64,000 nucleotides of DNA from Azolla caroliniana. Lineage: Eukaryota; Plantae; Polypodiophyta. Below are positions 650-63,722 of the stretch, one piece after another (position 1 is the first letter of the stretch; the number at the start of each line of letters is the position of its first letter). The stretch spans positions 13,268,001 to 13,332,000 of the forward strand of contig JBHGNT010000001.1 of the NCBI GenBank assembly GCA_043228905.1, in the 5' to 3' direction. A program made the position numbers and the translations under genes. The notes below the pieces were generated by a model. That model searched no databases. It was not told the origin of the DNA and was given only the letters and a program-made list of their open reading frames with translations.

Positions 650-5288
<4,639 letters not shown>

Positions 5289-26900: not shown

Positions 26901-27142
26901 AAATGACTTGGTTTTCAAACGATCAAACATATCAAATAGCATTCTTGGCCAAGGCAATGTGTTTTCAGCAATCTTTGGCAATAAAGTAGCTTTTCTAGCC
27001 AACATATGCAAATGCAAATTAAGAAAATTTAGCCCTCCACTTAATCGTGGAATGCATATATTCTCTAGTGATAGGAGTCTGTAAAGAATCAAGAGATGGA
27101 TTCTTGTGAAGCGGAATAGGTGTGAACTGTGTGTGTGTGTGT

Positions 27143-27202
<60 letters not shown>

Positions 27203-27615
27203 ACCCAAGGTTAAAAGTCTATTAACAAAGGAGAAAGACTCAATGTTATACAAGGTGGGAGGAGTGTCATGAACAGTACTGAGATAGAGAAGGAATTAGT
27301 ACTAAACGAAGGATTAGTACTATGAGAGGTGTGGAACTTCTTCGAGAGAAGGAAGAAGTGAGCGAGACAGAGAGAAAGAGAGAGAGAGAGAGAGTGATGA
27401 TAAGAAAGATATTTATTATATGAAGAGAATATACAACGGTGGCTAAAAGGCTTAAGACTGGCGTTGAACCAATTTGGTTCAACATAATGCCTAGTGCCCT
27501 CTTTTATAGTGTTTTCAGGAGTAATCCTGAAGCTTCTAGAATGTTCCAGAGAAATCTGGAATATACACTAATTTCCTATAATAAAATGTAAATGAAAATA
27601 ATATCCTACGTATTA

Positions 27616-27688
27616 CAATAGATGGTCTAATGGTCAAGAGCTCGACCCATATAACCTAAGGTCATGGGTTCGAGTCTTGCCATATCAT
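27616..27688 (+). promoter_or_regulatory. tRNA-like A-box/B-box module (Pol III type-2 promoter-like) within the chromovirus LTR, antisense to the element
   Basis: TGGTCTAATGG (27623) ... AGGTC-ATGGG-TTCGAGT-C (27659-27676) with tRNA spacing. Repeated at ~32845-32917 (+), ~53957-54028 (-) and ~63316-63386 (-). The cloverleaf is not intact, so this is not a tRNA gene. Confidence 0.55.
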
Positions 27689-30600
27689 GACACTATCCCC
27701 CCTTTAAAACGACGAGTGTCACGAGTCGTCTTGGATTGAGGACCCGGTTTGTGTGGATATTGACGATGGAAGTCTTCAAGAAGAGCACGAGCATTGGTTA
27801 CATTCTCGATCGGTTCCCAAGTACGTTCGCTGGGACTATAGCCTAGCCAATCGACTAGATAGTAGAGCTTGTTGCGAACAATCTTGGAATCAAGAATGGC
27901 AGCAACCTCGTACTCCGGCCCATCTTCAAGCTCGATCGGGGGTGGAGGTTGGATAAGACGTTCTGGGATGGTGCTCTCGTGGTAGGGTTCGAAGAGAGGA
28001 CTATGAAACACCGGATGTATCCGAAGTTGAGGAGGTAGATCGAGACGAAAAGCAACATCATTAATCTTTCCAATAATACGGAAAGGACCTAATCGCCGAT
28101 AATCCAACTTCTCACATGGGCGAGTAGTCTTGATGTGTCGTCGTAGCAACCACACCCGATCTCCAATATTAAAACTAGATGGAAGTCGATGACGATCCGC
28201 GTAGACCTTGTGTGTTTGTTGAGCTTGCTGGAGATGAGTAGATAAATCCGCTTGTATCTTGCGTAACCGCTCCAAACGATCCTCCGCGCACGGATTTGTG
28301 GACACCTCTGGGGTTTCAAGTACGCTCCACCGGGGGTGACATCCCGTATAAGCATAAAATGGCGTAACTTTAGTGGATGCGTGGATAGAGTTGTTATAGG
28401 CAAATTCGGCGAAGTGGAGAATATCTGCCCAGTCGTCCTGATGATAGCTGAGAAAGCACCGCAGATACTGCTCCAACGTTTGATTTGTTCGTTCAGCTTG
28501 GCCGTCAGTTTGTGGGTGGTAGCCGGAAGAGAGGTTACAAGTGACCTTGAGCATGTTAAAAAGGTGCTTCCAGAATTTTGACACGAACTGGGGTCCACGG
28601 TCGCTGATGATACTATCGGGGAGTCCATGATGCCGACATACTTCACGCATGACAATTTCGGCAGTGTCTTCACTGGAGATCTCCTTAGTACATGGCAAGA
28701 AATGAGCCATCTTCGTATATCGATCGACCACCGTTATAATCGCATTGAACCCCTTAGAGACTGGAAGATCTGTGATGAAGTCTAGAGCAATGGATTGCCA
28801 CGGCTTGCTTGGAATTGATAATGGTTCTAATAAACCATATGGATGATGCCTTGGCATTTTCGCTCTGCAACATGTATCACAAGTCCGAACAAAATCCTCG
28901 ACCAATTGTCGCATACAGGGCCACCAGAATGATCGTTGTACTAAATGTAATGTTTTAGTACTACCAAAATGCCCAGCTGTATACGTGTCATGACAGTTTT
29001 GTACTACTCGAAGGCGGCAAGAACCATTAGGAACATACAAAAGTTCTTTAAAGAAGAGTAATCCATCATGGTATTTGAATTGCCGATAGTCCGTACCTGG
29101 TGGTTGCGACTGTGAACACGACGCTCGAGAGGGATCAATTTGTGCTAGTATAGCTTGGGCGAACGCATCTGTCTTCAAGTCTTCACGTATGGTATCGATA
29201 ACGCGGGAATCCATAGGCATGTCAAAGATTTGTGTTGCTTGTAATCGTGCCGGTCCCAAGATGACTTGTTTTTGGTTATCGAAAGCTGGCTCGCCGGGAC
29301 GGGGTGCTAGATACGAACGCCGTGATAATGCATCTGCCTTCCCTTGGTGCCTCCCCGGACGATATGTAATTTTGAAGTCGAAACGCGTGAGGAAGTGGGC
29401 CCACCGAGCTTGACGTCGATTCAACACACGAGCATCCTGAAAGTAGGCAAGATTCTTGTGGTCACTAAATACGGTGACTGGATGAGAGGATCCCTCCAGA
29501 AAATGCCTCCATTGCATAAAAGAATCCACTATTGCCAATAGCTCCTTATCATGGATTTCGTAGTTGATTTCGGCGGCATCAAACTTGTGTGAGTGAAAAG
29601 CCACAGGATGTAGCTTTTCATCATTCCCCTGTTGTGACAGAATGCTCCCCAATGCAAAATCCGATGCGTCAGCTTCGATAATGAATGGTTTCTCCGGATC
29701 GACATGAGCTAGAATTGGAGCCGATGTAAATGCTTTTTTAAGACTCTCGAAAGCCATGTCCGTTTCTTCAGACCAGGTGAACGGTTGTCCCTTCCTGGTA
29801 AGTTGTGTGAGAGGTAGAACGATCTTTGAGTAATCCTGTATGAACTTCCGGTAAAAATTGGCAAAGCCTAAGAAGCATTGCACATCTCGTACCGAACGCG
29901 GAGTCTGCCATTCTACCACCGTTCTGACCTTAGCTGGGTCCATGGAGATGCCTTCTGACGAAATGATGTAGCCGAGAAATTCCACTTGGTTGCACCCGAA
30001 ACTACATTTTTCTAGCTTTGCATACAGACCATGTTCTCGAAGTCGTTTTAGTACTAATAGTACATGAGAATCATGTTCTTCTTGGGTCTTTGAATAAACC
30101 AGTAGATCATCCAAATAGATGATCAAACAATCATCCAATAGATCTCGGAATATGTCATTAGCCATGTGCTGGAAGACTGCCGGCGCATTAGTGAGGCCGA
30201 ACGGCATGACAGTATACTCGAAGTGCCCATATCTGGTGCGAAACGCGGTCTTCCATTCGTCTCCTGGTCGGATCCGTACGAGGTTATATGCTCCCCGTAA
30301 GTCGATCTTCGTGAAGAACCTGGCACCATTGATCCGTTCTAAAAGACTTGAGATAAGGGGAAGAGCATACCTATTCCTGATTGTAACCTTATTCAAGCCA
30401 CGGTAATCTACAACGAGACGAAGCGATCCATCTTTTTTCTTGACGAAGAAAATGGGCGCACCGGCTGGAGATTTCGAATGCCGAATGAAACCATTTTCCA
30501 AATTTTCCTCTATATAGGCCCGAAGGACTTCCAGCTCGGTTGGTGACAAATTGTAGATCGGTCCCCATGGCGGCTCTTTTCCCGGTTGTAAATCGATGGG

Positions 30601-31281
30601 GCAATCGTACGGTCGATGATGAGGAAGTGTGTTGGCTTGTACTTTATCGAACACATCGGTGTAATGGCGATACTTCTCGGGAAGTTGAACGGTGGATTCT
30701 TCTTTAGTGGTGTTGGAGGGGTTTACTGATATTGCAAAGAGGAACATTTCCTCCTTGTGCCCTTCTTTACGCAACTGACGTAGCGAAATGGTTGCCATCT
30801 TCTGAGTTGACCCTTGGGTTTGTCGACACCAGATTTCTCTTGTTTTCCAATCTATGTCAGGGTTATGTAACTCGAACCACGGTAGTCCTAAAACTATAGG
30901 ATGTTCTGGGATACTAATAATATTAAATGATACTACACATACTAAGTTATCTAGGACAATATTAATGGGCTCTGACTCTTCTAGGATATTTCCGGAAGCA
31001 ATGGGACGTCCATCAATGACTACTACAGAGGCTGGACACTGGAGTTTTCTTAGGGATATCTTATGAGCTTGAGCAAATTTCTTATCCATAAAGCAAGAGT
31101 TAGCTCCGGAATCTAGGAGTGCTAGGACATGTACTGGAGGGGTACTTTTAGTACTAACTATTACTTGGGCTACGAACACATCACTAACTTGCTTAGAGGG
31201 AATGGAACCACTAATGGGCTGCACAGATCTAGGGCTGTCCAACCAAACGGCTCCTATTTTGGCTGGACTTAGTCGTTTAAC
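27685..31281 (-). CDS. pol: Pol of chromovirus C (PR-RT-RNaseH-INT-chromodomain), -1 frame relative to gag
   Basis: LLDSGA, YLDD, EADASDF, INT HHCC and DDE core, GPF, and C-terminal chromodomain [35 protein letters not shown]. There is no ATG at the start of the frame. The stop lies inside the 3' LTR. Confidence 0.93.
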   Translation of the reverse strand, partial: [1198 protein letters not shown]

Positions 31282-32420
31282 TCTTCTTCTAACTGACTAA
31301 GGACATCAAATTTGTTTGCTAGATCTGGGATATTAGTACTATTAGGACTATCAGATATCCCTACTGAAATAGGTTCGGATTTAGTACAATTAGAACTAGC
31401 GACTATTTGGTTTACCTGTCTTCTTGGCCTATGGGGGCAATTTATTGCGATATGTCCTGGTCCACCGCAGTAAAGACATAGTCGATTTGTACGGCGTCGC
31501 TGCTTTTCTTCTTCGGATAATGGCCCTCGACGACGTGTAGTGTCAATCTCCATCGGAGTCGGAGTATTCGCTGGAGACGCATTATATGACTCCCTCGGAA
31601 AAGGTCTTGCTACCACTGAGGCGTAGGTGGGCTCTGATCTTGCCCTCGGCATCTGTAGCTGTCGTTCCGAACGTCGCTCAAAGAGGCGGTTGTCACATCT
31701 CACCGCGCGACTGATTGCTTCTGTTAAGGACTTTGGCTCTTCGGGGAAGGTCAAGAGTAAATCCTTGACGTCGTTGCGTAAACCATAACGGAATTGCTCC
31801 ATCAACGCTTGATCATCCCAAGGGATATCGGCGGCGAGTAGGCGAAAATCTGCAGCGTATGCGGAGGCTGGACGGTCACCTTGGCGTAATCGCCGGATTT
31901 TGTTGATTGCGGTCCTGATGCTGTCAGTATCTCCGAAACATGCTTTAAACTCACCTAGAAACCCTTCAAAATTGTTGAGTAACGGAGATTCCTTTTCTAA
32001 TAGTGGAGCGAACCATGACAACGCTGAGCCACTTAACAAAGTGCCTACTAAACCCACTCGTGATGCATCGGTGGGATATCGGGAAGGATGCATTTGAATA
32101 ACTAATCGTACCTGGTTAAGGAACCCTCTAAACTGCGATCGCGTTCCATCGAACTTCGTGGGAAGGCCAATCTTAGGTTCTTTATGAATCCCTTGTGTTC
32201 CGGGCCCATGTTGTTGCATCGCTACGATGGTGGCTTCGAGTTGTTGCACGCGTAACGCAAGTTCCCCATGTTGTTGTTGCGTTTGCTGATTTTCTAAGGA
32301 GATTTGCTGAAGATCCCCCAGCAACCGTTGGTTTTCTTGTTCCAAAGCATGGAACTTCTCCTTCAAGCATTGGAATTCCGAGAAAACAGATTGATATTCT
32401 TCAGCGCTAACAGTGGCCAT
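31269..32420 (-). CDS. gag: Gag of chromovirus C (coiled coil, capsid, CCHC zinc knuckle)
   Basis: 383-aa ORF with KFDGTRSQFRGFL, LRQGDRPASAYAADF, PTPMEID and CLYCGGPGHIAINC. Confidence 0.93.
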   Translation of the reverse strand: MATVSAEEYQSVFSEFQCLKEKFHALEQENQRLLGDLQQISLENQQTQQQHGELALRVQQLEATIVAMQQHGPGTQGIHKEPKIGLPTKFDGTRSQFRGFLNQVRLVIQMHPSRYPTDASRVGLVGTLLSGSALSWFAPLLEKESPLLNNFEGFLGEFKACFGDTDSIRTAINKIRRLRQGDRPASAYAADFRLLAADIPWDDQALMEQFRYGLRNDVKDLLLTFPEEPKSLTEAISRAVRCDNRLFERRSERQLQMPRARSEPTYASVVARPFPRESYNASPANTPTPMEIDTTRRRGPLSEEEKQRRRTNRLCLYCGGPGHIAINCPHRPRRQVNQIVASSNCTKSEPISVGISDSPNSTNIPDLANKFDVLSQLEEELND

Positions 32421-34362
32421 GGGATGAAAGAAAAGAGGAATAAAAGATTAGTAGGAAATGAGAGAGGCAGAAGGTAGGCAAATTGGTTCAAACTGTCATG
32501 AACAGTACTGAGACAGAGAAGGAATTAGTACTAAACGAAGAATTAGTACTATGAGAGGTGTGGAACTTCTTCGAGAGAAGGAAGAAGTGAGCGAGACAGA
32601 GAGAAAGAGAGAGAGAGAGAGAGTGATGATAAGAAAGATATTTATTATATGAAGAGAATATACAACGGTGGCTAAAAGGCTTAAGACTGGCGTTGAACCA
32701 ATTTGGTTCAACATAATGCCTAGTGCCCTCTTTTATAGTGTTTTCAGGAGTAATCCTGAAGCTTCTAGAATGTTCCAGAGAAATCTGGAATATACACTAA
32801 TTTCCTATAATAAAATGTAAATGAAAATAATATCCTACGTATTACAATAGATGGTCTAATGGTCAAGAGCTCGACCCATATAACCTAAGGTCATGGGTTC
32901 GAGTCTTGCCATATCATGACAAGGAGGGTGCTTTATGTAGTCACCCTCTCCCTTCATTAACTACAAGACTCATGGAGCATGGGGAATGTGAAAGCTCATA
33001 AGTTATGTGTCATAGAATATGATTCTATGACTCATACTAAATGCTAGAATACAAAGTGGTGACTTAATGGGGACTCTTGACCGTTGGAGTGTCTATTCAC
33101 TCTCAAGGTGAGTTCACACACTAGACCAAGTTGAGCTTGATTCTCAACACGCCCCCTCAAGCTCAAGTTGGGTCGGTTTCAGACGGTATTCGAAATCCGC
33201 TTTGACTCGCATTCCGGTGTCCGCGTTGACTCGTATCGACTTGCTTTATGCGGAGTTGCGGAATCCGTGTTCCAGCTTGCGTTGTGCGTAGTTGCGAAGT
33301 TTGTGCTTTGACTTGTGTCTTTCTTCGCGGCTTTGAGCGGTAGATCGGCTCTTCGCAGCTTCGTTGCATGGTTTCGAAATCCACACATTATTGCGTAATG
33401 CGCGGTTGTGGAATCTACACGTTATTGTGTAGTGTCTTGCGTACTCCCCCTCAAGCTTGGTAGGTCAGGGATCGTCAATCCGAGATTGGTCATGAATTGC
33501 CATAGCTTGTCGGCTCCTAAAGCCTTAGTGAAGATGTCGGCCGTTTGAAGATTTGTGCTAATGTGTTGTAGGTCAACATCGCCAGCTAGAACGCGCTCTC
33601 GGATGAAGTGATAGTGCACTTCGATGTGCTTTGTCCGCGTGTGGAACACCGGGTTCCGAGTCAGATATATATTGCTCATGTTGTCATAGTAAAGGGAAGT
33701 CGGATCCTTGATGGGTACGCCCAGATCCTTCAAAATCCTCTTGAGCCATACGGCTTCACACGCAGCTACGGCTGCGCCCCTGTATTCCGCCTCCGTACTC
33801 GAAAGAGCGACGGTATGCTGCTTCTTGCTACTCCAGGATATTGCTCCGCTGCCGAGGGAGAAAAAAAATCCAGAGGTTGATCTTCTATCGGCTTTGTAGC
33901 CGGCCCAATCGGCATCTGTGTACCCCTCGAGTCATATTGGCATCGCGGTCTTGTAGAGGATGCCGCAATCCATTGTGCCGCTCACGTAGCGTAGAACTCG
34001 ATTAGCGCAATCCAAGTGAGTATCACGCAGTGTTTGCATTAATTGGCTAAGGAGACCGACCGGATATTTGAGATCGGGTCGTGTGATCGTGACGTAGATG
34101 AGACTCTCGATGAGTTGCCGATACTGAGTCAGCTCACGCGCTTTGGTGCCGGAGTTCGCATCTAGTTTGAGAATACGATAGAGCGGGGTTGCCACGGATT
34201 TGCACTCAGCCATCCCGAACTTCTACAGTAAGTTGAGGATGTAGTGCCGTTGAGAGATCATGATTCCGGTCGGAGTCTGAATTACCTCGATGCTGAGGAA
34301 GTAGTGGAGCTCCTGCATGTCCGTCATCTCGAACTTGTCGGAAAGGAGGGATTTGACCTTAT

Positions 34363-37300
34363 TGTTGGGATTACGGTCCCTCCGGATGGGATGGTCAGAT
34401 GTCCGGGAATCGGGAATGAAGACCCGAATGAGGAGTACCCGGTATCGGAACCGGATGATGAAGACCCGGTTTCGGATCCGGATGATGAAGACCCGGTTTC
34501 GGATCCGGATGATGAAGACCCCGGCTACAGAGCCGGATGACGAATGTACCCGGAGAGAGATCTGGATGCGGGGACATATTTGTGAATATGTTTGCCAAGG
34601 GCCCTCTAGGCTGTATTTGTAAATAGCCCGAAAGTCATATGTGTATAAATATGACTTAGGGCAAACAGTTTTGTCGTTGCTGCTCATTTTTCTGTTTTCC
34701 ACTTAGAGGGAGCGAAGTGAGAGCAGCCGAGAGAGAGAGTGAGAGAGAGAGAGAAAGGAAGAGGTCGACGCCTCTGTGTAATACCGCCGCCTGTGGCGAG
34801 GACAGCGAGCTCAAGGTCGTCGCCTTGCAGCTCGCCACTGTACATTCCCTGCGTATAGTGATAGTTGGAGTCTTGCACTCCCGTGGTTTTTCCCGTCTAG
34901 GGTTTTCCACGCTAAACCCTGTGCATTCGAGTCTCTCTCTGTGTTTTTTCGATTTACTGCTGCATTGACTCGTGTTTCCTCGGTTGTGGCCGAGAGGCGA
35001 AGGTTTCGAACCGTCAATTTCTAACAATCTGGTATCAGAGCGACTGCAGTGCAGAAAATGGAAGGCGGCAGCAGCGGGCAGCCGGGGATGATGGTGCTGA
35101 ATGCGCAGAACTACGCCGACTGGAAGATAAAGATGGAGGATCTGCTCATTGTTCGGGACCTGTATGAACCGATCGACAGGTCGGAAATACCCAAGGGGGT
35201 ACTTGAGACAGAATGGAGGCTTCTGAACCGGAAAGCCGTTGCAACCATTCGGCAATACGTCGACGTGAGCGTTCTACAACATGTGGCGATCGACACCAAC
35301 GCATATGAGATGTGGCAGAAGCTGTCGGGCCTCTACGAGAGGAAGAATGCGTTGAATCGGACCTCCCTGATGAGGAAGATAGTGAACCTCAAGTACCGGG
35401 ACGGCGAGAGTATGGTGGAACACGTAAGCACGTTCATGGGATTCGTGAACCAGCTTGCGGCGATCAAGTTCCCGTTGGAGGATGCAATGCAAGCCATCAT
35501 GCTGATGTGTACATTGCCGGAAAGCTGGGAGAACTTGGTGGTGACTCTCAACACCTCCTGCACCGAAGATAACTTGTCCCTACAAACGGTAAAGACAAGC
35601 ATTCTGAACGAAGAAGCGCGTCGGAGAGATAAAGAACCGGCCTCCGATCCGAAGATGCTGCTTACCGAATCGGATCGGGGAAGACAACGGAACCGGAGTC
35701 CGCAAAGACGGGAGAAGTCGGGGACCCGGTCGCAGTCAAGAGGAAGGCCCACATGCTTCCACTATGGGAAGCCGGGGCACTTCCGAAAGAATTGTCGGCA
35801 TTACCGAAAAGACAACGGAGCCGACGACACCGATTTGAAGAAGTCTTCGGAACGGAACGGTGCTTACCGGGGAGCCACGGACCGAAATGGTTCGGATCGG
35901 CGAGGGCAGGACCGGAAAGGAACGACGGCACTCGCGGCAAGTGAAGAGGAGATCATGCTCATCACCGAAGAAGGTGAACTAAACATTGCCGGCGATGAGA
36001 CTACCTGGGTGGTCGATTCCGGAGCGTCGTTCCACCTGACCCCGGAAAGAAGATACTTCTCATCCTACACAGCCGGTGAGCATGGCTGTGTTCGGATGGG
36101 AAATGAAGGTACGTGCTGGATTGCCGGCATAGGAGACGTGTGGTTGACAACCTCAACCGGATGCAAAATGTTGCTGAAGGATGTCCGACACGTTCCGGAG
36201 GTTCGATTGAACCTGATTTCGGCCGGGAGGCTAGACGATGAAGGCTACACAGGTAGCATCCGGAACTGCGTAATGAAGTTCAGCAAGGGGAGCCTGATAG
36301 TGGCTCGGGCCCGGAAAGTCAACACACTGTACCTTATGAATGCCCGGTTGTGTCCGGAGGAGTTGAACGTGGCAGCCGACACTGCCGGTGAGCTGTGGCA
36401 CAAGAGACTGTGCCACATGAGTGAGAAGGGGATGAAGAGGCTTGCAGAAGACAACCTTATTCCAGTGAAGCATGTGCACCTGGAGAAGTGCACCGATTGC
36501 CTGGCCGGTAAGCAGAACCAAACCTCCTTCCACTCAAGGCCACCGACGAGACGTAGCGCACCATTGGAGTTGGTGCACACTGACATGTGTCAAGTAGAAA
36601 CGAAGTCACATGGCGGAGCCCAGTACTTCGTGACATTCATTGATGACCACAGCCGGAAGCTGTGGACGGCACCGTTGAAGACAAAGGACCAAGTGTTGTG
36701 CGTCTTCAAAGAACTCCACGCGAGAGTGGAAAGGGAATCCGACAAGAAGCTGAAAGCGATACGAGCGGATAACGGAGGGGAATACCGGGGGCAGTTCAAG
36801 GAGTACTGTCGCTCGAAGGGAATCCGGCTCGAGTTTACTGTGCCGAAGACGCCGGAACTGAACGGGCTGGCCGAGAGGATGAACCGGACCATAATGGAGA
36901 GGGTCCGGAGTATGCTGGCGCATGCGAAATTACCCAAGGGGTTTTGGGCTGAGGCAATGTCGACGGCGACATACGTGATAAACAGATCACCCTCAGTACC
37001 TTTGGACGGAGACACGCCGCAGAGAGTGTGGACCGGTAGGGAAGTATCCTACCGGCATCTGAAGGTGTTCGGGTGTCTCGCATATGTGCATGTGGCAAAG
37101 GACCGGAGAGGAAAGCTAGATCCAAAGACCCGGCCATGCATATTCCTCGGTTACGGCGATGACGAGTTCGGCTATCGAGTATGGGACCCGGTCGACAAAA
37201 AGATATTCCGGAGTCGTGATATCATCTTCATGGAGGACAAGACACTCGCCGACTGGGAGTCGGAGAAGAAGATGAAGAGCTCCAAGTCGACCGGTGAGGA

Positions 37301-39778
37301 TCAACTCTACGAGGAGCAGTCCCGACCGGCAAGGGACCGGTTAGCACTCGAGGATCCGGCCGAAGACGGTGAAGAAACAGAACCGGCCGAGGAAGATGAA
37401 ACTGATACCGGAACCGGCCCCGATCCCGAAATGGATTCGGATGAAGAGGAAACGGAGGAGCCGGTTACCGAAGCTCCGGAACGGAGATATCCTCTAAGAG
37501 AGAGAAGGGCCCCCCGGAGATTTCCGGAACCAGAGCACGTGCTGCTAACCGACGAGGGGGAGCCGGAGAGTTTTGAAGAAGCAAAGCTTGACACCCATAG
37601 CCGCAGGTGGTTAAGTGCCATGCAGGAGGAGATGGATTCCCTGCATGAGAACCACACATATGAACTTGTGGAGTTGCCGAAAGGAAAACGGGCACTTCGA
37701 AACAAGTGGGTGTTCAAGCTGAAACCGGGAGATGCCGGAAACCCCCCGAGATACAAAGCCAAGATCGTGGTGAAGGGGTTCCAACAGAAGAAGGGCGTCG
37801 ACTTCGACGAGATATTTGCCCCGGTAGTGAAGATGACCTCCATCCGGACGGTGCTGAGCATAGCGGCAAGCATGGACCTCGAGGTAGAACAGATGGACGT
37901 GAAGACGGCATTCCTTCACGGTGACCTCGAAGAAGAGATCTACATGCAGCAACCGGAAGGATTCGAGAAGAAAGGGAAGGAGCACCTGGTATGCCGGTTG
38001 AAGAAGAGCCTTTACGGACTGAAGCAGGCTCCCCGGCAATGGTACCGGAAGTTCGACTCTTTCATGACCGACGAAGGGTACCACAAAACGTAGTCCGATC
38101 ACTGCGTGTTTGTGAAGAAGTTCGAAGGAGGAGACTTTCTAATACTCCTCCGGTACGTGGACGACATGTTGATCGTCGGACGGGACCAGGTCAAGATACG
38201 GATGCTGAAGAAAGCGCTTCACCGAACCTTCTCAATGAAGGACCTGGGTCCGGCGAGGCAAATACTAGGGATGCACATCATCCGGGACCGGAAGAAGAAT
38301 CAGTTGTGGCTGTCACAAGAGAAGTACGTGACAAAGGTGCTTCACCGGTTCAACATGTCGGAAGCAAGACCGGTCGGGTCAACCCTCCCGGCAAACTGCA
38401 AGTTGTCCAGCAAGCAAAGCCCCAAGACAAAGGCTGAGAAGGAGGACATGATGAAAGTACCATATGCCTCTGCCGTCGGAAGCTTGATGTACGCAATGGT
38501 GTGTACAAGACCGGACATAGGATATGCAGTCGGAGTGGTGAGCCGGTACATGAGCAATCCCGGCAAAGAGCACTGGAACGCGGCCAAGTGGATACTCCGA
38601 TACCTGAAGGGCACGACAAACGTGTGCCTCCGATTTGGCTCCGGTAAGCCCGAACTCGACGGCTTTACCGATTCGGATATGTCGGCTGATGCAGATACCA
38701 GCCGGTCCACATCAGGGTATGTGATGACGTATGCAGGGGGAGCTGTTTCGTGGCAGTCGAGGCTGCAGAAGACGGTTGCGTTGTCAACCACGGAGGCGGA
38801 GTACATGGAGGCTGTTGAAGCCGGCAAGGAAATAATATGGATGAAGGACTTCATTAGAGAGCTCGGTATCCGGCAGGAGGAGTACCGACTCTACTGCGAC
38901 AGTCAGAGTGCCATCCACCTTGCGAAGAATGCGGCCTATCACTCCCGGACGAAGCACATCCAGCGAAGATATCACTGGATCCGGGAAAGGATAGAAGACC
39001 AGGAGTTCGTGCTGACGAAGATCCACACGGACGAGAACGGGTCAGATATGCTGACCAAAGTGCTCACACCCGACAAGCTGGAAGCGTGCCGGAAGAGGGT
39101 CGGACTGGAAAGACATCCCATGCCGAAGTGAGGGGGGAGTTTGTTGGGATTACGGTCCCTCCGGATGGGATGGTCAGATGTCCGGGAATCGGGAATGAAG
39201 ACCCGAATGAGGAGTACCCGGTATCAGAACCGGATGATGAAGACCCGGTTTCGGATCCGGATGATGAAGACCCCGGCTACGGAGCCGGATGACGAATGTA
39301 CCCGGAGAGAGATCTGGATGCGGGGACATATTTGTGAATATGTTTGCCAAGGGCCCTCTAGGCTGTATTTGTAAATAGCCCGAAAGTCATATGTGTATAA
39401 ATATGACTTAGGGCAAACAGTTTTGTCGTTGCTGCTCATTTTTCTGTTTTCCACTTAGAGGGAGCGAAGTGAGAGCAGCCGAGAGAGAGAGTGAGAGAGA
39501 GAGAGAAAGGAAGAGGTCGACGCCTTTGTGTAATACCGCCGCCTGTGGCGAGGACAGCGAGCTCAAGGTCGTCGCCTTGCAGCTCGCCACTGTACATTCC
39601 CTGCGTATAGTGATAGTTGGAGTCTTGCACTCCCGTGGTTTTTCCCGTCTAGGGTTTTCCACGCTAAACCCTGTGCATTCGAGTCTCTCTCTGTGTTTTT
39701 TCGATTTACTGCTGCATTGACTCGTGTTTCCTCGGTTGTGGCCGAGAGGCGAAGGTTTCGAACCGTCAATTTCTAACA
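34363..39778 (+). mobile_element. Ty1/copia element D (Tnt1/Tork-like), nearly intact, inserted in the RT of Copia B
   Basis: TSD CTTAT at 34358-34362 and 39779-39783. LTRs 34363-35026 (664 bp) and 39142-39778 (637 bp). PBS TGGTATCAGAGC at 35030-35041; PPT gaggggggag. Lineage is inferred from similarity to Tnt1 motifs. Confidence 0.96.
35058..39131 (+). pseudogene. Copia D gag-pol polyprotein with one in-frame stop (TAG 38091-38093)
   Basis: ORFs 35049-38093 and 38106-39131 are in the same frame. Motifs: VVDSGASFH, WHKRLCHM...CTDC, DNGGEY, QMDVKTAFLHG, YVDD, FTDSD. The knuckle is altered to CFHYGKPGHFRKNC. Confidence 0.92.
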
Positions 39779-42700
39779 CTTATTGATTTCGACGAGATGC
39801 TCACCTCCAATGACTAGGTCATCCACATATAAGATGATGACGATCGGACTTGCGGAATCGCTTCGTATGTAGAGGGAGTTGTCCGATTTTGACATACGGA
39901 AGCCGATTTGATGAAGATACTACGTTATCTTCGAATGCGAAGCACGTGGTGCTTGCTTGAGGCCGTAGAGTGGCTTCTTGAGTCGGCAAATAGCTTTCGG
40001 ATGGGTGCTCGAGTTGAAGCCGGGTGGTTGGATAATGTACACCTCCTCTTCTAATTCGCCTTGTAGAAAGGCGTTCTTGACGTCCATTTGATGGAGGTGC
40101 CACCCTTTTGCCGCGGCAATCGCAATTACGGCCCGCACCGTCGTCATCTTTGCCACCAGGGCAAAGGTCTCTTCGTAGTCAACGCCATGCGTCTGAGCAT
40201 ATCCTTTCGCTACGAGTCGAGCTTTGTAGCGGTTCACGGAGCCATCGGTGTTATACTTCACCTTGTAGATCCATCTGCATCCGATCGCCTTTTTATGTGG
40301 TGAGGTGGGAACGAGATCCCACGTCTTGTTCTTCCGTAGTGCCTGCATCTCCTCGTTTATTGCTTCGATCCATTGCGGGTCCTTCACAGCTTCCGAAAAG
40401 GTTTCCGGCTCCCGTACTGTCGCTACCTTCATCATAAAGGCGTAATGGTACGCCATATAATCGTTGTAGCCAAATCGGCTTACGGGGTTCTTTTCACGGG
40501 TGGATCGGCGGAGCTTTTCATTTGCAGAGATGAGGGCTTTCTTAGCTCCAATTGGTACCTCGAAACAGCCGAACTCACTGTCGAGTGAGTGAGTCGACTC
40601 ATCGTCGTTGAAGCGATCGTCTTTATATTTCGACATTTTCGCCTTGCCTTTGTCCATCTTCGGGCTAGGCCGTGATGTGCTTTGATCGCTCAAAGGCTCT
40701 TGTGGTCCGCTCAATCGGGTCGTGATCGGACTTTCTTTGAATATGCGCTTAAGGCGATCTTCATCCTCGATCTCTTGTTCGGTGAATTCCGGGTCGAGCG
40801 GAGTCGGAGTTGGAGTTGTCTCTAGTGTGTACCAGGATGCGGACTCGTCAAAAACGACGTCTCGACTTACTCGAGATTTTCGAGTTGAGGGGTTGTAGCA
40901 CTTGTACCCCTTTTGCTCCAGTGAGTATCCTACGAGGATACATTTCTTCGACTTCGGGTCGAGCTTTTGACGCTTCTCGTCGGGGATGTGCACGTACACA
41001 ATGGAGCCAATTATCCGAACATGTGATAGGTTCGGCTTCTTTACGAAGAATTTTTAGTGCGGAGTGACCTTGTGCACGCCGGATGTTGTGCACCGGTTCA
41101 TTAGGTAGATGGCCGTATTTGCAGCTTCGGCCCAATATGACTTGGGCATATGCCTCTCGTTCATCATGGCCCACGCTACTTCGAGGATGTGCCGATTTTT
41201 GCGCTCGGCTACTCCGTTTTGTTGCGAAGTGTGTCGGCAAGTGAAATCTCGCTGAATTCCTTCCTTTCAGAGATATGCCATGAAATCGTCCGAGAAGTAC
41301 TCCTTGCCGCCATCCGATCGAAGGCATCGTACATGTCGGCCCGTGGTTTTCTCGACTTCATTCTTGAAATTTTGGAAGTGTCCGAACACTTTTCTCTTTT
41401 GCCGCATCGGGTAGATCCAAGTGTGCCTAGAGAAGTTGTCGATGAAGAGCACGTAATATCGGAATCCGCCGAATGTAGCCGTCTGCGCCGGTTCCCATAC
41501 GTCGGAATGGACTATGTCGAGTAGACCTTTGCTCACGTTCCGCTCTTTCGGGAATGGGTGTCAGTGTTGCTTGCCGAATTGGCACGCTTCGCATACACCT
41601 TCAATCTCCTTCTCTTTGAATGTCGGGAGTCCGATGACGACTCCTTTCGATTTCATTGCTTTGAGTTTGTTGAGATTGATGTGGCTGATTTGCTTGTGCC
41701 ATAGCTCTATATCAGAGTCGGCTTTCGTGTTTTTCGTGAAAATGGCGGATTTCATCTCGCGTGAATCGAGAATGAACATCCGGCCCTCTCTTCGTCTGTG
41801 TGCGATGAGTTGGCCGTCTTTTTCGATGAAGCAACCGCCTTGATTAAATCGAACTTGCATCCGTTGCTCTACAATTTGGCCGACGGAGACTAAATTCTTC
41901 GTAATGGTCGGTACATGCAAGACATTTTTAATGTAATTTTGCTTACCTTCTTTTCTGAACGGAACATGGCCAATGTGCCGAATCGGGTGCGTAGTGTCGT
42001 CTCTGGTTTCGACATAGCCGGGTCGGTCCGGCTCTCAAAGTTCTCGGAACCATTCTTGATGCGATGTATTATGGTTCGAGGCACCGGAATCGACGAACCA
42101 TACGTCTTCCGGACCGGAGGCACTAGTTGAGGTAGCGGCTGACATAGAGTTTGCTCTATGTTTCATCATGAACATTTCGCCACGGTTGGAGTTGTGGGCA
42201 TACATTCCACCACGATCTTCGTAGTCGGAGTTGTGCCCGTACATTTCGCCACGGTCGGAGTTGGGTGCATACATTCCGCCACGATCTTCGTAGTCGGAGT
42301 TGTGTGCGTAATTCGTGAGTTGTCGGCTTGTGGAAGCCCATTCACGCATCTTCTTTCGGCACTCTTCTTCATGATGGCCGAGCTTTCCGCAATATCTGCA
42401 TTCGGTTGCGTTTTGACGGCTCGGGCCGGAGTGGAAGCTCCCCCTTCTTGCGAAGGTTCCTCGTTGGCCTCCGTTTTGCGGCCGAAATTAGGAGTTGTTG
42501 TCGTAGGTCGGACCTCGTCCGCCTTGTCCTTGGCCGAATCGACCTCTCGCTCGTCCGCGTCCTCTTCCTCCATTAGAATGCGTGTAGAGCATGTGGCCTT
42601 CCGACTCATTGCTCCTTGTACGCACGTGGTTTTCTTCGACCAATAACATTGATTGGAACTCGAAGAAGGAGGGAGATTTCTCCCGTGCTAGAACGGCGGT

Positions 42701-43412
42701 TCGCATTGTGCCGAACCGTGGTGCGTGGCCGCCGAGGCATATTTGCACCATCTCATCATCATCTATACTTACGCTTATTGAGCCGAGCAAGTCGCAGAGC
42801 TCCTTGATCTTCAAGGTGTATGTCGTGATGGACATGTCCCTTTGTTGAATGTTGTTCAACTCTTGGCGGAGTTGAAGCTTCCTCGCGCTTGTGTTGGCGG
42901 CAAAAATCTTTCGTAGATTTTCCCATGCTTCCTTCGACGTCTTGGCTTCTTGAATGTAACCGAGCATGTGGTCGTGAACACATGTCGCCAAACAATACAT
43001 CACGCGGCTTGCCGCTTGCTCCCATGTCGCGTATCCGGGAGCCGCTTCGGCGGGTCGGTGTTCATGCGCTCCTTTGATGTAGCTCCAATAGCCTTGTCCG
43101 ACAAGGTATTGGTGCATCTTGTACTCCCAAGATGTGAAGTTGTTTCGATCCAACTTCTCGGTAGGGAGAGCACTCCCCATTTGAGTATTCATTATGTCGA
43201 TTCTTCTTCTTCTTCTTCTCTCTTCGAATGCGAGCTATGTAGCGAAGCTACGATAGCTATGAGCCGGTTCTTTGTCGTCGGCGTAGAGCACAACACACGA
43301 TCATGATGAGGCGAATGGGCTAGATCGAGCTACCAAATCGCTCTGATACCATGTAAAGAATCAAGAGATGGATTCTTGTGAAGCGGAACAGGTGTGAACT
43401 GTGTGTGTGTGT

Positions 43413-43460
<48 letters not shown>

Positions 43461-53952: not shown

Positions 53953-56821
53953 TGTCATGATATGGAAAGACTCGAACCCATGACCTTATGCTACATGGGT
54001 CGAGCTCTTACCATTAGACTATGTATTGTAATACGAAAGATATTATTTTCATTATATTCTCGAGTTCTTTGGAACATTCTAGAAACTTCAAGAGTACTCC
54101 TGACAACACTATAAAAGGAGGCACAAGGAATTATTTCGAACCAAATCGGTTCAACGCTAGTCTTAAGCCTCCTAGCTACTATTGTACATTCTCTTCACAT
54201 AATATATATCTTTTCTTATCATCACTCTCTCTCTCTCTCTCTCCCTCTCTCTCTCCCTCCCTCTCACTCACTCTTTCCTTCTCTTGAGAGTTCTTCACCT
54301 CTCTTAGTACTAATACTTCTTTTAGTACTAATTCCTTCTCTGTCTTAGTACTGTTCCTGACAGTTTGAACCGATTTGGTCGTTCTTCCTTCCTCCTCTTC
54401 CTTTCCTCCTCTTCCTTTTATCTTCTTATTAATCCTCTTATCCTCCCTAGTAAAATGGAAATTGTTAACGCTCAGGAATACGAATCTGTTTTCTCGGAGC
54501 TCCAATGCTTAAAAGAGAAATTTGTAGCACTAGAACAAGAAAATCTTCGTTTGTTGGGGGATCTTCAACAAATAGTGCTGGAAAAACAACAACAACATGG
54601 GGAGCTGACGTTATGTGTACGAAAACTCAAAGCGACTATCATATCATTACAACAACAAGGATCAAGCACTCAAGGGATTCACAAAGAACCCAAGATCGGT
54701 CTTCCTGCAAAATTTGATGGGACCCGATCACAGTTTAGAGGGTTTTTGAATCAGGTACGTTTAGTGATACAAATGCATCCTTCTCGATATCCCACCGATG
54801 CATCACGAGTGGGACTAGTAGGCACTCTCCTTAGTGGCTCAACGTTAGCACGGTTTGCTCCATTGTTGGAAAAGGAATCTCCATTACTAAACAATTTTGA
54901 AGAATTTATAAGTGAGTTTAAGGCCTGTTTTGGAGATACTGACAGCATAAGGATTGCAATCAACAAAATCTGGCGATTACGCAAAGGTGATCATCTAGCC
55001 TCCGCATACGCTGCAGATTTCTGCCTACTCATTGCCGATATCCCTTGGGATGATCACGCATTGATGGAGCAATTTTGTTATGGCTTACGCAACGATGTCA
55101 TTAACAGAAGCAATTAGTCGCACAGTGAGATGCAACAACCGCCTCTTCAAACGACATTCGGAACGACAATTCCAGATTCCAAGGGCAAGGATTTACTCTT
55201 GACCTTCCTCGAAGAGACAAAGTCATTAACAGAAGCAATCAGTCACACAGTGAGATGCAACAACCGCCTCTTCGAACGACGTTCGGAACGACAATTCCAG
55301 ATTCCAAGGGCAAGATCAGAGCCTACCTATGCCTCAATGGTAGCAAAACCTTTTCCGAGGGAGTCATATAATGCGCCTCCAGTAAGTACTCCAACTCCGA
55401 TGGAAATTGACACCACACGTCGTCGTGGACCGCTATTGGAAGAAGAAAAGCAACGATGCCGAGCAAACCGACTATGTCTTTATTGCGATGGACCAGGGCA
55501 TATCACGGTAAACTGTCCCCATAGGCCAAGAAGGCAGGTAAACCAAATAGTTGCTAGTTCTAATTGTACTAAACCCGAGTCTATTTCAGTAGGGATATCT
55601 GATAGTCCTAATAGTACTAATAGCCCAAATCTAGCGAACAAATTTGATGTCCTTACTCAGTTAGAAGAAGAGTTAAACGACTAAGTCCAGCCAAAATAGG
55701 AGCCGTTTGGTTGGACAGCCCTAGATCTGTGCAGCCCATTAGTGGTTCCATTCCCTCTAAGCAAGTTAGCAATGTGTTCGTAGCCCAAGTAGCAGTTAGT
55801 ACTAAAAGAACTCCTCCAGTACATGTCTTAGCACTTCTAGATTCCGGAGCTAATTCTTGCTTCATGGATAGGAAATTTGCCCAAGCTCATCAGATATCTC
55901 TTAGAAAACTCCCGTGTCCTGCCTCTATAGTAGTCATTGATGGTCGTCCCATTGCTTCCGGAAATATCATGGAAGAGTCAGAGCCCGTTAATATTTTCCT
56001 AGATAATCTAGCATGTGTCGTATCATTAAATATAATTGGCATCCTAGAACACCCCATTGTCTTAGGATTACTATGGTTCGAATTACATAACCTAGACATA
56101 GATTGGCGGACAAGAGAAATCCGGCATCGAAAAGCCCGAGGGTTTACTCATGAGATTGCAACGATTTCACTACATCAGTTGCGTGAGGAAGGATGCAAGG
56201 AAGAAATGTTCCTCTTCGCAATATCAGTAAAACCCTCCAGCACCACTAAAGAGGAATCCACCATTCAACCTCCAGAGAAGTATCGTCATTATGCCGATGT
56301 GTTTGATAAAGTACAAGCCAATACACTTCCTCACCATCGACCATATGATTGCCCCATCGATTTACAATCGGGGAAAGAGCCACCATGGGGACCGATCTAC
56401 AATCTGTCACCAACCAAACTGGAAGTCCTTCGAGCTTATATAGAGGAGAATTTGGAGAATGGTTTCATACAACATTCGAAATCTCCACCCTGCGCACCCA
56501 TTTTCTTCGTCAAGAAAAAGGATGGCTAACTTCGTCTCTGTTGAGAATCAAGCTCAACTTGGTCTAGTGTGTGAACTCACCTTGAGAGTGAATAGACAAT
56601 CCAACGGTCAAGAGTCACCATTAAGTCACCTCTTTGTATTCTAGCATTTAGTATGAGTCATAGAATCATATTCTATGACACATAATTTATGAGCTTTCAC
56701 ATTCCCCATGCTCCATGAGCCTTATAGTTAATGAAGAGAGAGGGTGACTATATAAAGCACCCTTCTCCCACCTTGTTTTGTGTCGACTCTTTCTCCTTTG
56801 TTAATACACTTAACCTTGCGT

Positions 56822-56900
<79 letters not shown>

Positions 56901-60514: not shown

Positions 60515-60561
<47 letters not shown>

Positions 60562-63500
60562 ACACAGTTCACACCTATTCCGCTTCACAAGAATCCATCT
60601 CTTGATTCTTTACAGTCTCGTTGTAGATTATTGTGGCTTGAATAAGGTTACAATCCAAAATAGGTATGCACTCCCCCTTATCTCAAGTCTTTTAGAACGG
60701 ATCAATGGTGCCAAGTTCTTCACGAAGATCGACTTACGGGGAGCCTATAACCTCTTACGGATTCGACCAGGAGATGAATGGAAGACCGCGTTCCGCACCA
60801 GATATGGGCACTTTGAGTATACGGTCATGCTGTTCGGCCTCATAAATGCACCAACAGTCTTCTAGCACATGGCAAATGATATTTTCCTAGATCTCTTGGA
60901 TGTGTGTCTAATCATCTATTTGGATGATCTACTGGTTTACTCAAAGACCCAAGAAGAGCATGATTCTCATGTACTTTTAGTACTAAAACGACTTCGAGAA
61001 CATTGTCTTTATGCAAAGCTGGAAAAATGTAGTTTCGGGTGCAACCAGGTGGAATTTCTTGGCTATGTCATTTACTCAGAAGGCATCTCCATGGACCCAG
61101 CTAAGGTCAAAACGGTGGTAGACTGGCAGACTCCGCGTTCGGTGCGGGATGTGCAATGCTTTTTAGGCTTTGCCAATTTTTACCGGAAGTTTATAAAGGA
61201 TTACTTAAAGCTCGTTTTGACTCTTACATAACTTACTAGGAAGGGACAATCGTTCGTTTGGTCTGAAGAAGCGGACATGGCTTCTGAGAATCTTAAAAAG
61301 GCATTTACATCAGCTCCGATTCTAGCTCACGTTGATCCAGAAAAACCATTCATCATCGAAGTGGATGCATCGGATTTTGCATTGGGGAGCATTCTATCAC
61401 AACGAGGTAATGATGAGAAGCTACATCCTATGGCTTTTCACTCACGCAAGTTTGACGCTGCCGAAATCAACTACGAAATTCATGATAAAGAGCTATTGGC
61501 TATAGTGGACTCTTTTATGCAATGGAGGCATTTTCTAGAGGGATCTTCTCATCAAGTCACTGTATTCAGTGACCACAAAAACCTCGCCTATTTTCAAGAC
61601 GCTTGTGTGTTAAATCGACATCAAGCTCAGTGGGCCCATTTTCTCACACGTTTCGACTTCAAGATTACATATCGACCTGGGAAGCATCAAGGGAAAGCAG
61701 ATGCATTATCACGGCGTTCATACCTAGCACCGCGTCCCGACGAGCCATCTTTCGATAACCAAAAGCAAGTAATCTTGGGACCAGCACGACTGCAAGCAAC
61801 ATAGGTCTTTGGCATCCCCATGGATTCCCATGTTATCAATATCATACGTGCGGACTTGAAGACAGATGCTTTCACCCAAGCTATACTAGCACAAATTGAT
61901 CCCTCTCGAGCGTCGTGTTTACAGTCGCAACCACTAGGTACGGACTATCGGCAATTCAAATACCATGATGGATTACTCTTCTTTAAAGAACTTTTGTATG
62001 TTCCTAATGGTTCTTGCCGCCTTCGAGTAGTACAAAACTGTCATGACACATATACAGCTAGGCATTTTGGTAGTACTAAAACATTAGATTTAGTACAACG
62101 ATCATTCTGGTGGCCCCGTATGCGACAATTTGTCGAAGATTTTGTTCAGACTTGTGATACATGCTGCAGAGCGAAAATGCCAAGGCATCATCCAAGCAAG
62201 CCATGGCAATCCATTGCTCTAGACTTCATCACAGATCTTCCAGTCTCTAAGGGGTTCAATGCGATTCTAACAGTGGTAGATCGATATACGAAGATGGCTC
62301 ATTTCTTGCCATGTACTAAGGAAATCTCCAGTGAAGACACCGCCGAAATTGTCATGCATGAAGTATGTCGGCATCATGGACTTCCCGATAGTATCATCAG
62401 CGATCGTGGACCCCAGTTCGTGTCAAAATTCTGGAAGCACCTTTTTAAAATGCTCAAGGTCACTTGTAACCTCTCCTCTGGCTACCACCCACAAACTAAT
62501 GGCCAAGCCGAACGAACAAATCAAACGTTGGAGCAATATCTACGGTGCTTTCTTAGCTATCATCAGGATGATTGGGTAGATATTCTCCACTTCGCCGAAT
62601 TTGCCTATAATAACTCTATCCACGCATCGACTAAAGTTACGCCATTTTATGCTTATACGGGATATCACCCCCGGTGGTGTGTACTTGAAACCCTAGAGGT
62701 GTCCACAAATCCTTGCGCGGAGGATCGTTTGGAGCGGTTACACAAGATACAAGCGGATTTATCTACTCATCTCCAGCAAGCTCAACAAACACACAAGGTC
62801 TATGCGGATCATCATCGACTTCCATCCAGTTTTAACATTGGAGATCGGGTGTGGCTGCTACAACGACACATCAAGACTACTCGCCCATGTGAGAAGTTGG
62901 ATTATCGGCGATTAGGTCCTTTCCGTATTATCGGAAAGATTAATGATGTCGCTTTTCGTCTCAATCTACCTCCGCAACTTCAGATACATCTGGTGTTTCA
63001 TAGTTCTCTCCTCGAACCCTATCATGAGAGCACCATCCCAGGACGTATTATTCAACCACCACCCCCGATCGAGCTTGAAGATGAACCGGAGTACGAGGTT
63101 GCCGCCATCCTTGATTCCAAGATTGTTCGCAACAAGCTCCACTATCTAGTCGATTGGATAGGATATAGTCCCAACGAACGTACTTGGGAACTGATCGAGA
63201 ATTTGACCAATGCTCATGCTCTTCTTGAAGACTTCCATCGTCAATATCCACACAAACTGGGTCCTCAATCCAAAACGACTCGTGACACTCGTCGTTTTAA
63301 AGGGGGGATAGTGTCAGATATGGCAAGACTCGAACCCATGACCTTATGCTACATAGGTTGAGCTCTTACCATTAGACTATGTATTGTAATACGAAAGATA
63401 TTATTTTCATTTAAGTTTTATTATAGGAAATTGATGTATATTCTAGAGTTCTCTGGAACATTCTAGAAACTTCAGGAGTACTCCTAACAACACTATAAAA

Positions 63501-63722
63501 GGAGGCACAAGGCATTATTTCGAACCAAATCGGTTCAACGTCAGTCTTAAGCCTCCTAAGTACTATTGTACATTCTCTTCACATAATATATATCTTTTCT
63601 TATCATCACTCTCTCTCTCTCTCTCCATCCCTCTCACTCACTCTTTCCTTCTCTCGAGAGTTCAGTTCTTCACCTCTCTTAGTACTAATTCCTTCTCGAG
63701 AGAATTAGTACTGTTCTTGACA
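53953..63722 (+). mobile_element. Ty3/gypsy chromovirus F (same family as C, older, degenerate), carrying nested G
   Basis: LTRs 53953-54362 and 63312-63722; decayed TSD GCCTG/ACCTC (ancestral GCCTC of Copia A). Gag 54455-55684 has a stop; pol 55672-56538 + 60620-63320 has stops and ends in a chromodomain. Confidence 0.93.
56539..60614 (+). mobile_element. Ty1/copia element G (same family as B), internally deleted
   Basis: TSD GTCTC at 56534-56538 and 60615-60619. LTRs 56539-56946 and 60199-60614; PBS TGGTATCAGAGC at 56947-56958. Gag is fused to the integrase core at 57491-57495. RT-RH ORF 58402-60021. Confidence 0.95.

What the first reader, a model, noticed from the sequence alone, without database searches (positions are those of the whole stretch)
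32479..32737. tRNA-independent self-priming site in chromovirus C/F, with a compensatory base-pair change between the two copies
Seen: C has no TGG-type tRNA PBS after its 5' LTR. Instead the sense strand reads CA-gt-TTGAACCAATTTG (32491-32479), the exact reverse complement of CAAATTGGTTCAA (32705-32693) in its own LTR, ~32 nt downstream of a TATAAAA box (32737). In copy F both partners changed together: LTR ACCAAATCGGTTCAA (54140-54154, TATA at 54110) and PBS TTGAACCGATTTGGT (54365-54379), so a U-A pair became C-G. Established: S. pombe Tf1 primes reverse transcription with the cleaved 5' end of its own transcript annealed to the PBS. Inference: this plant family does the same, and the covariation suggests the pairing is functionally maintained.
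Basis: partly seen in the sequence, partly recalled or inferred. Interest (0 to 1): 0.8.

Follow-up and report, generated by a model that had tools for sequence, protein, structure and literature searches.

The report
Self-priming plant chromovirus, 12-base primer
This plant jumping gene has no tRNA primer site but a 12-base site that pairs with a stretch of its own terminal repeat and changes in step with it across dozens of relatives, so it likely starts copying itself with the first 12 bases of its own RNA, a trick known from yeast Tf1 and already predicted in print for this group of plant elements.

Summary
C (27265-32921, minus) is a young, intact Ty3/gypsy chromovirus, probably of the Tcn1 (Tf1/sushi) group, in a land plant. 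Its primer-binding site (PBS) pairs with its own LTR 33 nt below TATA.

In 38 relatives plus C and F the helix is 12 bp, not 13 or 15. It occurs as 8 perfectly matched variants. Covariation exceeds all 500 shuffles, and pairing collapses at position 13. Self-priming is therefore well supported, but it is not new: it was predicted for 83% of 1500 plant Tcn1 elements (PMC6317226), and this scan noted it before on other moss DNA.

Corrections: the predicted RNA start is 32704/54143; C-G is probably ancestral; and the paired change is likely written by reverse transcription copying the primer into the PBS, not by two selected mutations. RNA start and cleavage remain untested.

Side finding: U3 carries a back-to-front tRNA-type A-box/B-box cassette (32852-32905, plus strand) whose boxes are conserved across the family while the stems are not. 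My searches did not find this described for an autonomous element.

The parts
27265..32921 (-). Element C, intact Ty3/gypsy chromovirus, 5657 bp, 5-bp target duplication, inserted in the 3' LTR of a copia element
   Evidence: LTRs 426 of 428 identical; the same 5 bases flank both ends
32494..32921 (-). C 5' LTR (TG...CA, 428 bp)
32852..32905 (+). tRNA-type A-box (32852-32862) and B-box (32896-32905) cassette in U3, antisense to the element
   Evidence: box consensus recalled; no tRNA called by ARAGORN or Rfam
32731..32737 (-). TATA box, 33 nt above the predicted RNA start
   Evidence: 32-33 nt in all 32 close-family loci anchored by TATA
32693..32704 (-). Predicted 12-nt self-primer (start of R)
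   Evidence: being the RNA 5' end is inferred
32692..32692 (-). Invariant unpaired C at +13; predicted RNase H cut lies between +12 and +13
   Evidence: invariant in 30 of 30 rows, unpaired in the consensus fold; cut inferred from Tf1
32685..32691 (-). R +14 to +20, predicted to pair with the GT spacer and the GAC of the LTR end (weak flanking duplex)
   Evidence: in the best fold of 10 of 17 close rows, not of C or F
32692..32712 (.). Local 21-nt palindrome across the U3/R border, perfect in C, not conserved in the family
32492..32493 (-). GT spacer between LTR end and PBS
32480..32491 (-). C primer-binding site, 12 nt, no TGG
31269..32420 (-). gag (383 aa; Ty3 capsid, zinc knuckle)
27685..31296 (-). 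pol in an overlapping frame: PR, RT, RNase H, IN, chromodomain with aromatic cage residues
27693..27705 (-). Polypurine tract
27265..27692 (-). C 3' LTR, with the second copy of the cassette (27615-27683, plus strand) and of the primer sequence
53953..54362 (+). F 5' LTR (cassette 53962-54029 on the minus strand; TATA 54110)
54143..54154 (+). F predicted 12-nt self-primer
54365..54379 (+). F PBS (54365-54376) plus a 3-nt private extension of the pairing
63312..63722 (+). F 3' LTR, same primer variant (63527-63538); F is older (LTRs 354 of 381 identical) and interrupted by a copia insertion

Best explanation
C and F are copies of a plant chromovirus whose 12-base primer-binding site is complementary to, and covaries with, a segment of its own LTR 33 bases below the TATA box, so the element likely primes reverse transcription with the first 12 bases of its own RNA, as yeast Tf1 does. 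Shown: the pairing, its 12-bp length and sharp outer edge, its maintenance in 8 sequence variants, and the absence of a tRNA-type TGG site. Inferred: (1) Pol II starts at the A at 32704 (54143 in F). (2) The RNA folds so that bases 1-12 pair with the PBS, helped in some subfamilies by a short duplex between R +14 to +20 and the LTR end. (3) The element's RNase H cuts between base 12 and the unpaired C13. (4) RT extends the freed 3' end across the GT spacer into U5. (5) During plus-strand synthesis the primer is copied back into the PBS, so one mutation at the R start is carried into the PBS without a second mutation (about 0.65). The extra pairs in C and F would then be imprints of slightly longer primers from upstream starts (about 0.35).
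For: 30 rows: 346 of 360 cells of the 12 core pairs are standard pairs and 8 pairs change on both sides. The next two pairs outward hold in only 4 and 3 of 30 rows. The covariation score of the 16 pairs tested is 0.33 against 0.11 (0 of 500 shuffles), and slid registers score 0.10 or less; 12 of 12 Watson-Crick pairs in 23 of 27 high-coverage contigs (26 of 27 allowing G-U), 2 of 2 window copies and 3 of 9 low-coverage, decayed-looking copies. At positions 2, 3, 4, 6, 7 and 8 the gag tree needs 17 changes in R, 17 in the PBS and 17 jointly (31 rows). Many are A-T swaps with no G-U intermediate. Position 5 changes once in R and three times in the PBS, so R leads and the PBS follows. C differs from its 98%-identical relatives L011 and L012 by having the matched base and an altered PBS edge. 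Folding gives a mean pair probability of 0.85-0.97 in 17 of 18 RNAs. Relatives: nearest named Pol proteins are from a chytrid, a mucoralean and a smut fungus and from fish. Literature: PMC6317226, PMC7175516, PMC11042837.
Against: No RNA start, cleavage product or primed cDNA was observed. Host tRNAs could not be searched. 4 of 27 high-coverage contigs are imperfect: three carry one G-U and L083 has two mismatches. The persistence of G-U in high-coverage contigs fits poorly with fast overwriting. The two distant rows pair only 10-11 of 12, and L080 does not form the helix in its best fold. Tf1's third duplex, downstream of the PBS, is not seen. The contigs are collapsed assemblies, nearly all from one accession series, and can be chimeric. 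Open forks in the tree can inflate the change counts. Related sequences can beat shuffles without structure, so the tree count and the slid controls carry more weight than the shuffle count.
Confidence: 0.9

Rival explanations
1. Self-priming is right, but the paired changes are classical compensation: two separate mutations, the second selected to restore the helix. This competes only with step 5.
For: G-U intermediates persist in three high-coverage contigs (L011, L012, L016). High-coverage families pair better than decayed copies (23 of 27 against 3 of 9), which shows selection on the helix.
Against: A-T swaps and multi-position changes arrive already matched (17/17/17). At position 5 the PBS catches up repeatedly after a single R change. 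Tf1 cDNA carries the PBS as a DNA copy at its 3' end (PMC11042837 passages).
Confidence: 0.3
2. The helix is a real long-range RNA structure for packaging, dimer formation or translation control, and priming uses something else.
For: Sequence alone cannot show priming. PMC2864245 (section 6) found no evidence of either priming mode in the lycophyte element SM-Tcn1.
Against: The helix starts exactly 2 nt after the LTR end, where a primer must end, and stops exactly at a pyrimidine/A initiator position 32-33 nt below TATA. No other primer site exists there.
Confidence: 0.05
3. A host tRNA fragment ending in the T-loop primes the element; the C variant does resemble the complement of a tRNA T-loop (recalled consensus).
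For: The 3' half of the primer in C and several subfamilies reads like a B-box. The host tRNA set could not be searched.
Against: No TGG. Eight PBS variants each follow their own R sequence. The B-box-like words fall in different registers in different subfamilies, so no single tRNA cut fits.
Confidence: 0.03
4. The match is chance, or a by-product of the local U3/R palindrome.
For: C's segment lies in a perfect 21-nt palindrome whose left arm repeats the PBS start.
Against: 1 of 20000 shuffles. The palindrome register is fully paired in only 3 of 19 distinct rows, while the long-range helix is fully paired in 15 of those 19.
Confidence: 0.01

Closest known systems
Plant chromovirus Tcn1 clade (REXdb; Neumann et al. 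2019, PMC6317226: passages and Additional file 5 read; Novikova et al. 2010, PMC2864245: passages and section 6 read)
   Same: Chromodomain with aromatic cage, gag and pol in overlapping frames, 5-bp target duplication, size within 5466-9444 bp, PBS complementary to the LTR; self-priming predicted for 83% of 1500 elements. SM-Tcn1 is 5704 bp with 440-bp LTRs; C is 5657 bp with 428-bp LTRs.
   Different: Their prediction rests on a match of at least 10 nt per element. The passages I read give no covariation, primer length or order of change. Their per-element table and sequences (Additional files 1 and 3) were too large to read and may include this family.
Tf1/Tf2 of Schizosaccharomyces pombe, Tj1, Tosmo1-3 (PMC7175516, PMC4600332, PMC5341516, PMC11042837, bioRxiv 10.1101/2022.12.06.519325: passages only; the original Levin papers were not held)
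   Same: RNA 5' end complementary to the PBS; a flanking duplex between sequence after the primer and the LTR end.
   Different: 12 nt rather than 11; a 2-nt spacer before the PBS; no conserved duplex downstream of the PBS; cleavage is proven for Tf1 and untested here.
Helenus and Cassandra, TRIMp3 (Kojima 2024, PMC10886601: abstract, passages, section 3.5 and Discussion read); for the U3 cassette only
   Same: tRNA-derived sequence inside the LTR, conserved at boxes A and B and not as a tRNA fold.
   Different: Those are short, non-coding, tRNA-primed elements whose Pol III promoter is thought to make the element's own RNA. Here the element is autonomous, has a TATA promoter, and the cassette points backwards, out of the LTR's 5' end.

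Membership tests
chromovirus Tcn1 | Ty3/gypsy order PR-RT-RH-IN with C-terminal chromodomain | tested here: met
chromovirus Tcn1 | Aromatic cage in the chromodomain (95% of Tcn1; also Chlamyvir and Galadriel of non-seed plants) | tested here: met
   Tyr, Trp, Tyr at the cage positions in C and relatives; cage positions recalled
chromovirus Tcn1 | gag and pol in overlapping frames, 5-bp target duplication, 5.5-9.4 kb | tested here: met
chromovirus Tcn1 | At least 10 nt starting 0-5 nt after the LTR complementary to the LTR; no tRNA PBS | tested here: met
chromovirus Tcn1 | RT-RH-IN tree groups it with labelled Tcn1 references | tested here: inconclusive
   no labelled Tcn1 reference was available; nearest named cores are chytrid 58%, mucoralean 55%, smut 50%, fish 47%, and no seed-plant name is among the 120 listed hits
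chromovirus Tcn1 | Host is a moss or Selaginella | tested here: inconclusive
   land-plant NEK kinase in the window, best named hits ferns at 42-44%; neighbour element has a Phygy-type 4-bp duplication and a Trp-type PBS (tRNA end recalled)
Tf1-type self-priming | Complementary segment is the 5' end of the RNA | tested here: inconclusive
   fixed 32-33 nt below TATA; RNA reads too few to show starts
Tf1-type self-priming | Primer-PBS helix kept through sequence change | tested here: met
Tf1-type self-priming | RNase H cleavage releases the primer | not testable with these tools
   RNase H domain present
Tf1-type self-priming | Duplex between sequence after the primer and the LTR end | tested here: inconclusive
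   4 consensus pairs; 10 of 17 close rows, not C or F
Tf1-type self-priming | Third duplex downstream of the PBS (three-duplex pretzel) | tested here: not met
   absent from the consensus fold and not a shared feature of the single folds
Helenus (TRIMp3) | tRNA-derived A and B boxes in the LTR | tested here: met
Helenus (TRIMp3) | Short non-coding element with a tRNA PBS | tested here: not met
Helenus (TRIMp3) | Pol III promoter faces into the element | tested here: not met
   antisense in 20 of 31 LTRs, sense in 0 of 31

The most novel reading that the evidence does not exclude
This autonomous, self-priming chromovirus lineage keeps a captured tRNA gene back to front in U3 as a working TFIIIC / RNA polymerase III element. 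It would act as a chromatin barrier that shields the LTR promoter inside silenced repeat islands, or as an antisense promoter. Its PBS is rewritten from the primer at each cycle, so genomic copies record the RNA start of their parent.
Probability: 0.4. Interest if true: 0.6.

Novelty: new member of a known kind. Interest (0 to 1): 0.36.

Why it matters
Self-priming has been proven only in fission yeast; in plants it is a per-element prediction. The covariation here makes that prediction much firmer and gives exact positions to test: a start at 32704, a 12-nt primer and a cut before C13, in a young intact copy. It also warns that primer-PBS covariation in self-priming elements can be made by the copying itself and need not mean two selected mutations. 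The conserved backward Pol III-type cassette would, if functional, be a new LTR component for autonomous retrotransposons and a candidate for how they stay transcribable in heterochromatin.

Tried and rejected
No host genome was held, so other genomic copies and host tRNAs could not be searched. ARAGORN found 0 tRNAs in the window.

No RNA holder was listed. Three poly(A) runs of a related species label gave 61, 38 and 55 reads and no pile-up of starts, which is uninformative on the start site and on antisense RNA. A second lay of four DNA runs on 32450-32730 listed neither covarying site, also uninformative.

The viral collection gave 10 distant elements at 31-43% identity. A quick inverted-repeat scan suggested a similar 10-11 nt pairing in about 4 of the 10; I did not follow it up. 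The gag scan there found nothing. Cluster look-ups named no host.

The local U3/R hairpin, as a mask for the 3' copy of the primer, was rejected because it is not conserved and does not covary. The B-box look of the primer was rejected because the register varies. A tRNA cloverleaf for the U3 cassette was rejected: 64.6% paired against 63.9% in shuffles, 191 of 500 as high; Rfam gave no tRNA match, and ARAGORN at a lowered threshold gave only scattered calls. Host placement from the NEK exon stayed open. Five primary Tf1 papers were not held.

Full report
Observation. Element C spans 27265-32921 on the minus strand, with 428-bp LTRs that are 426 of 428 identical and a 5-bp target duplication. 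It has an open gag and an overlapping open pol with protease, RT, RNase H, integrase and a chromodomain. F (53953-63722, plus) is an older copy, with LTRs 354 of 381 identical, split by a copia insertion. In both, the LTR end is followed by GT and then a tract without TGG that is complementary to the LTR just below TATA. The 12-nt complement arose in 1 of 20000 shuffles of the LTR.

Relatives. No host genome was held. I aligned the window's gag with 29 of the 120 listed homologues and scanned the metagenome collection; 282 stretches encoded a relative and the best 80 gave 79 loci. 57 loci had the gag start within reach. Of these, 4 had no LTR-PBS junction, 19 had a PBS but no TATA-anchored R start in the contig, and 34 had both. 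Both sides were anchored on motifs that do not use the eight variable positions. I added 4 of the 19 in which R could be placed by its flanking motif alone, plus C and F, giving 40 rows. The DNA alignment A2 has 30 rows: those 40 minus 6 near-duplicates, 4 with only a 3' LTR and 1 truncated, plus L017. These contigs are collapsed assemblies, nearly all from one accession series, so they sample element lineages rather than independent hosts.

Covariation. In A2 the 12 core pairs hold in 346 of 360 cells, and 8 of them change on both sides. The next four pairs outward hold in 4, 3, 14 and 11 of 30 rows, the last two through A/T-rich composition. The score for all 16 pairs is 0.33 against 0.11 in shuffles (0 of 500), and no slid register exceeds 0.10. 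RNAalifold predicts the same 12 pairs without being told. All 12 pairs are Watson-Crick in 23 of 27 contigs with coverage of 8 or more (26 of 27 allowing G-U), in both window copies, in 3 of 9 low-coverage contigs and in neither of the 2 distant rows, which pair 10-11. Eight different primer sequences occur with a perfect partner. On the gag tree, restricted to 31 rows (9 low-coverage rows dropped), positions 2, 3, 4, 6, 7 and 8 need 17 changes in R, 17 in the PBS and 17 jointly; open forks may inflate these numbers. The helix begins at an A 32-33 nt below TATA in the close family, which predicts the RNA start at 32704 in C and 54143 in F.

Mechanism. In Tf1 the first 11 bases pair with the PBS and RNase H cuts between bases 11 and 12 (PMC7175516, passage). 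The same anatomy here gives a 12-nt primer, a cut before an invariant unpaired C, and extension across the GT spacer. Folding from the predicted start gives the helix a mean pair probability of 0.85-0.97 in 17 of 18 RNAs; the distant L080 fails. A short second duplex with the LTR end appears in the consensus fold and in 10 of 17 close rows but not in C or F. The third duplex of Tf1's three-duplex structure (bioRxiv 10.1101/2022.12.06.519325, passage) is not seen. Start, cleavage and priming are inferred; RNA reads were too few to test the start.

How the paired change arises. Plus-strand synthesis copies the primer into the PBS (established for LTR elements; Tf1 cDNA carries the PBS as DNA at its 3' end, PMC11042837, passages). 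A mutation at the R start can therefore be carried into the PBS in one cycle. C-G is the common state; R changes once to T on the branch to C's group, and the PBS needs three changes. L011 and L012 are about 98% identical to C but keep the old PBS base as a U-G pair, whereas C has the matched base and a changed base just past the PBS. C and F are the only 2 of 40 rows with G there, extending the pairing by 1 and 3 bases, which may record longer primers; this is a post-hoc reading. Against fast overwriting, the U-G state persists in three high-coverage contigs.

What it is. The nearest named relatives of the RT-RH-IN core are from a chytrid, a mucoralean and a smut fungus and from fish. The chromodomain keeps the aromatic cage, and the layout matches Tcn1 in REXdb and SM-Tcn1. 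No labelled Tcn1 reference was available, so membership is probable, not shown. The host is a land plant (NEK kinase exon), probably non-seed. The best named NEK hits are ferns, but a neighbouring element has Phygy-type features known from moss.

Novelty of the finding. Neumann et al. predicted self-priming for most Tcn1 elements, 83% of 1500 (PMC6317226, passages and Additional file 5). Novikova et al. saw no such evidence in SM-Tcn1. A search for self-priming with LTR retrotransposon and covariation returned no paper; the library lacks most subscription journals, and two supplements of PMC6317226 could not be read. This scan has already reported self-priming in two moss elements on other DNA. 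The finding is a well-supported new member of a known kind.

Side finding in the same LTR. On the antisense strand U3 carries an A-box and a B-box 43-44 nt apart in 19 of 20 hits (32852-32905 in C). A fixed pattern from the recalled consensus found it in 20 of 31 distinct LTRs, in 0 of 31 on the sense strand and in 13 of 6200 shuffles. A profile built from 18 of the hits found it at the same place in 8 of the 9 close-family misses with E of 0.008 or better and in the ninth only at E 0.91; it found nothing in the 2 distant LTRs or the 10 viral-collection loci. In 27 rows chosen with that profile, the ten tRNA-invariant positions average 0.90 pairwise identity against 0.43 in the arm between and 0.37-0.45 in the flanks. 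A plain alignment of 15 whole U3 regions shows the two boxes, the LTR end and TATA as the only conserved islands. The stems are not conserved, and neither ARAGORN nor Rfam calls a tRNA. This is the signature of a retained Pol III-type promoter or TFIIIC site; function is untested. The closest known case is Helenus, which is non-autonomous and tRNA-primed (PMC10886601). Three searches showed no report for an autonomous chromovirus; I read 2 of the listed papers.

Verdict. Observation confirmed; self-priming likely (0.9); already predicted for this clade; interest 0.36, raised a little by the defined primer length, the order of change and the U3 cassette.

Noticed in passing
window 32852-32905 (+), 27615-27683 (+), 53962-54029 (-), 63320-63387 (-); loci such as L018:5045-5111, L035:534-600, L039:2448-2512: Antisense tRNA-type A-box/B-box cassette near the LTR 5' end, boxes conserved across the family, stems not; possible TFIIIC or Pol III element.
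   Followed up: yes
window 32479 and 54377-54381: C and F are the only 2 of 40 rows with G right after the PBS; the extra bases complement sequence just above the predicted start, possibly imprints of longer primers.
   Followed up: partly
window 20012-26953: Tandem array of a 246-bp unit, 27 copies 100% identical to the reference and a partial last copy; origin not examined, could be young or an assembly collapse.
   Followed up: no
window 44251-51552 (-): Young non-chromovirus gypsy element, 790-bp LTRs 99.5% identical, 4-bp NCGN-type duplication and Trp-type PBS, like Phygy of mosses.
   Followed up: partly
window 27075-43745 (-), 34362-39778 (+), 56533-60614 (+): Nested island: C sits in the 3' LTR of a copia element that also holds a second copia; a relative of the first copia interrupts F.
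   Followed up: partly
window 650-3400 (-): 3' exons of a land-plant NEK kinase gene; best named hits are ferns at 42-44%.
   Followed up: partly
L080:258-402 and L087:2166-2313: Distant elements (50% gag identity) with a 10-11 nt self-complementary PBS, the same motif after the primer, and a matching change in the flanking duplex and LTR end; no U3 cassette.
   Followed up: partly
L040:5975-5986; L033:719, L034:1311, L037:91: One subfamily may use an 11-nt primer; the R and PBS come from different contigs about 79% alike, so this is only a lead.
   Followed up: partly
L002, L003, L007, L008 (first 500 nt): Distant gypsy elements from the viral collection show 10-11 nt inverted matches in the LTR region, possibly self-priming sites.
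   Followed up: no
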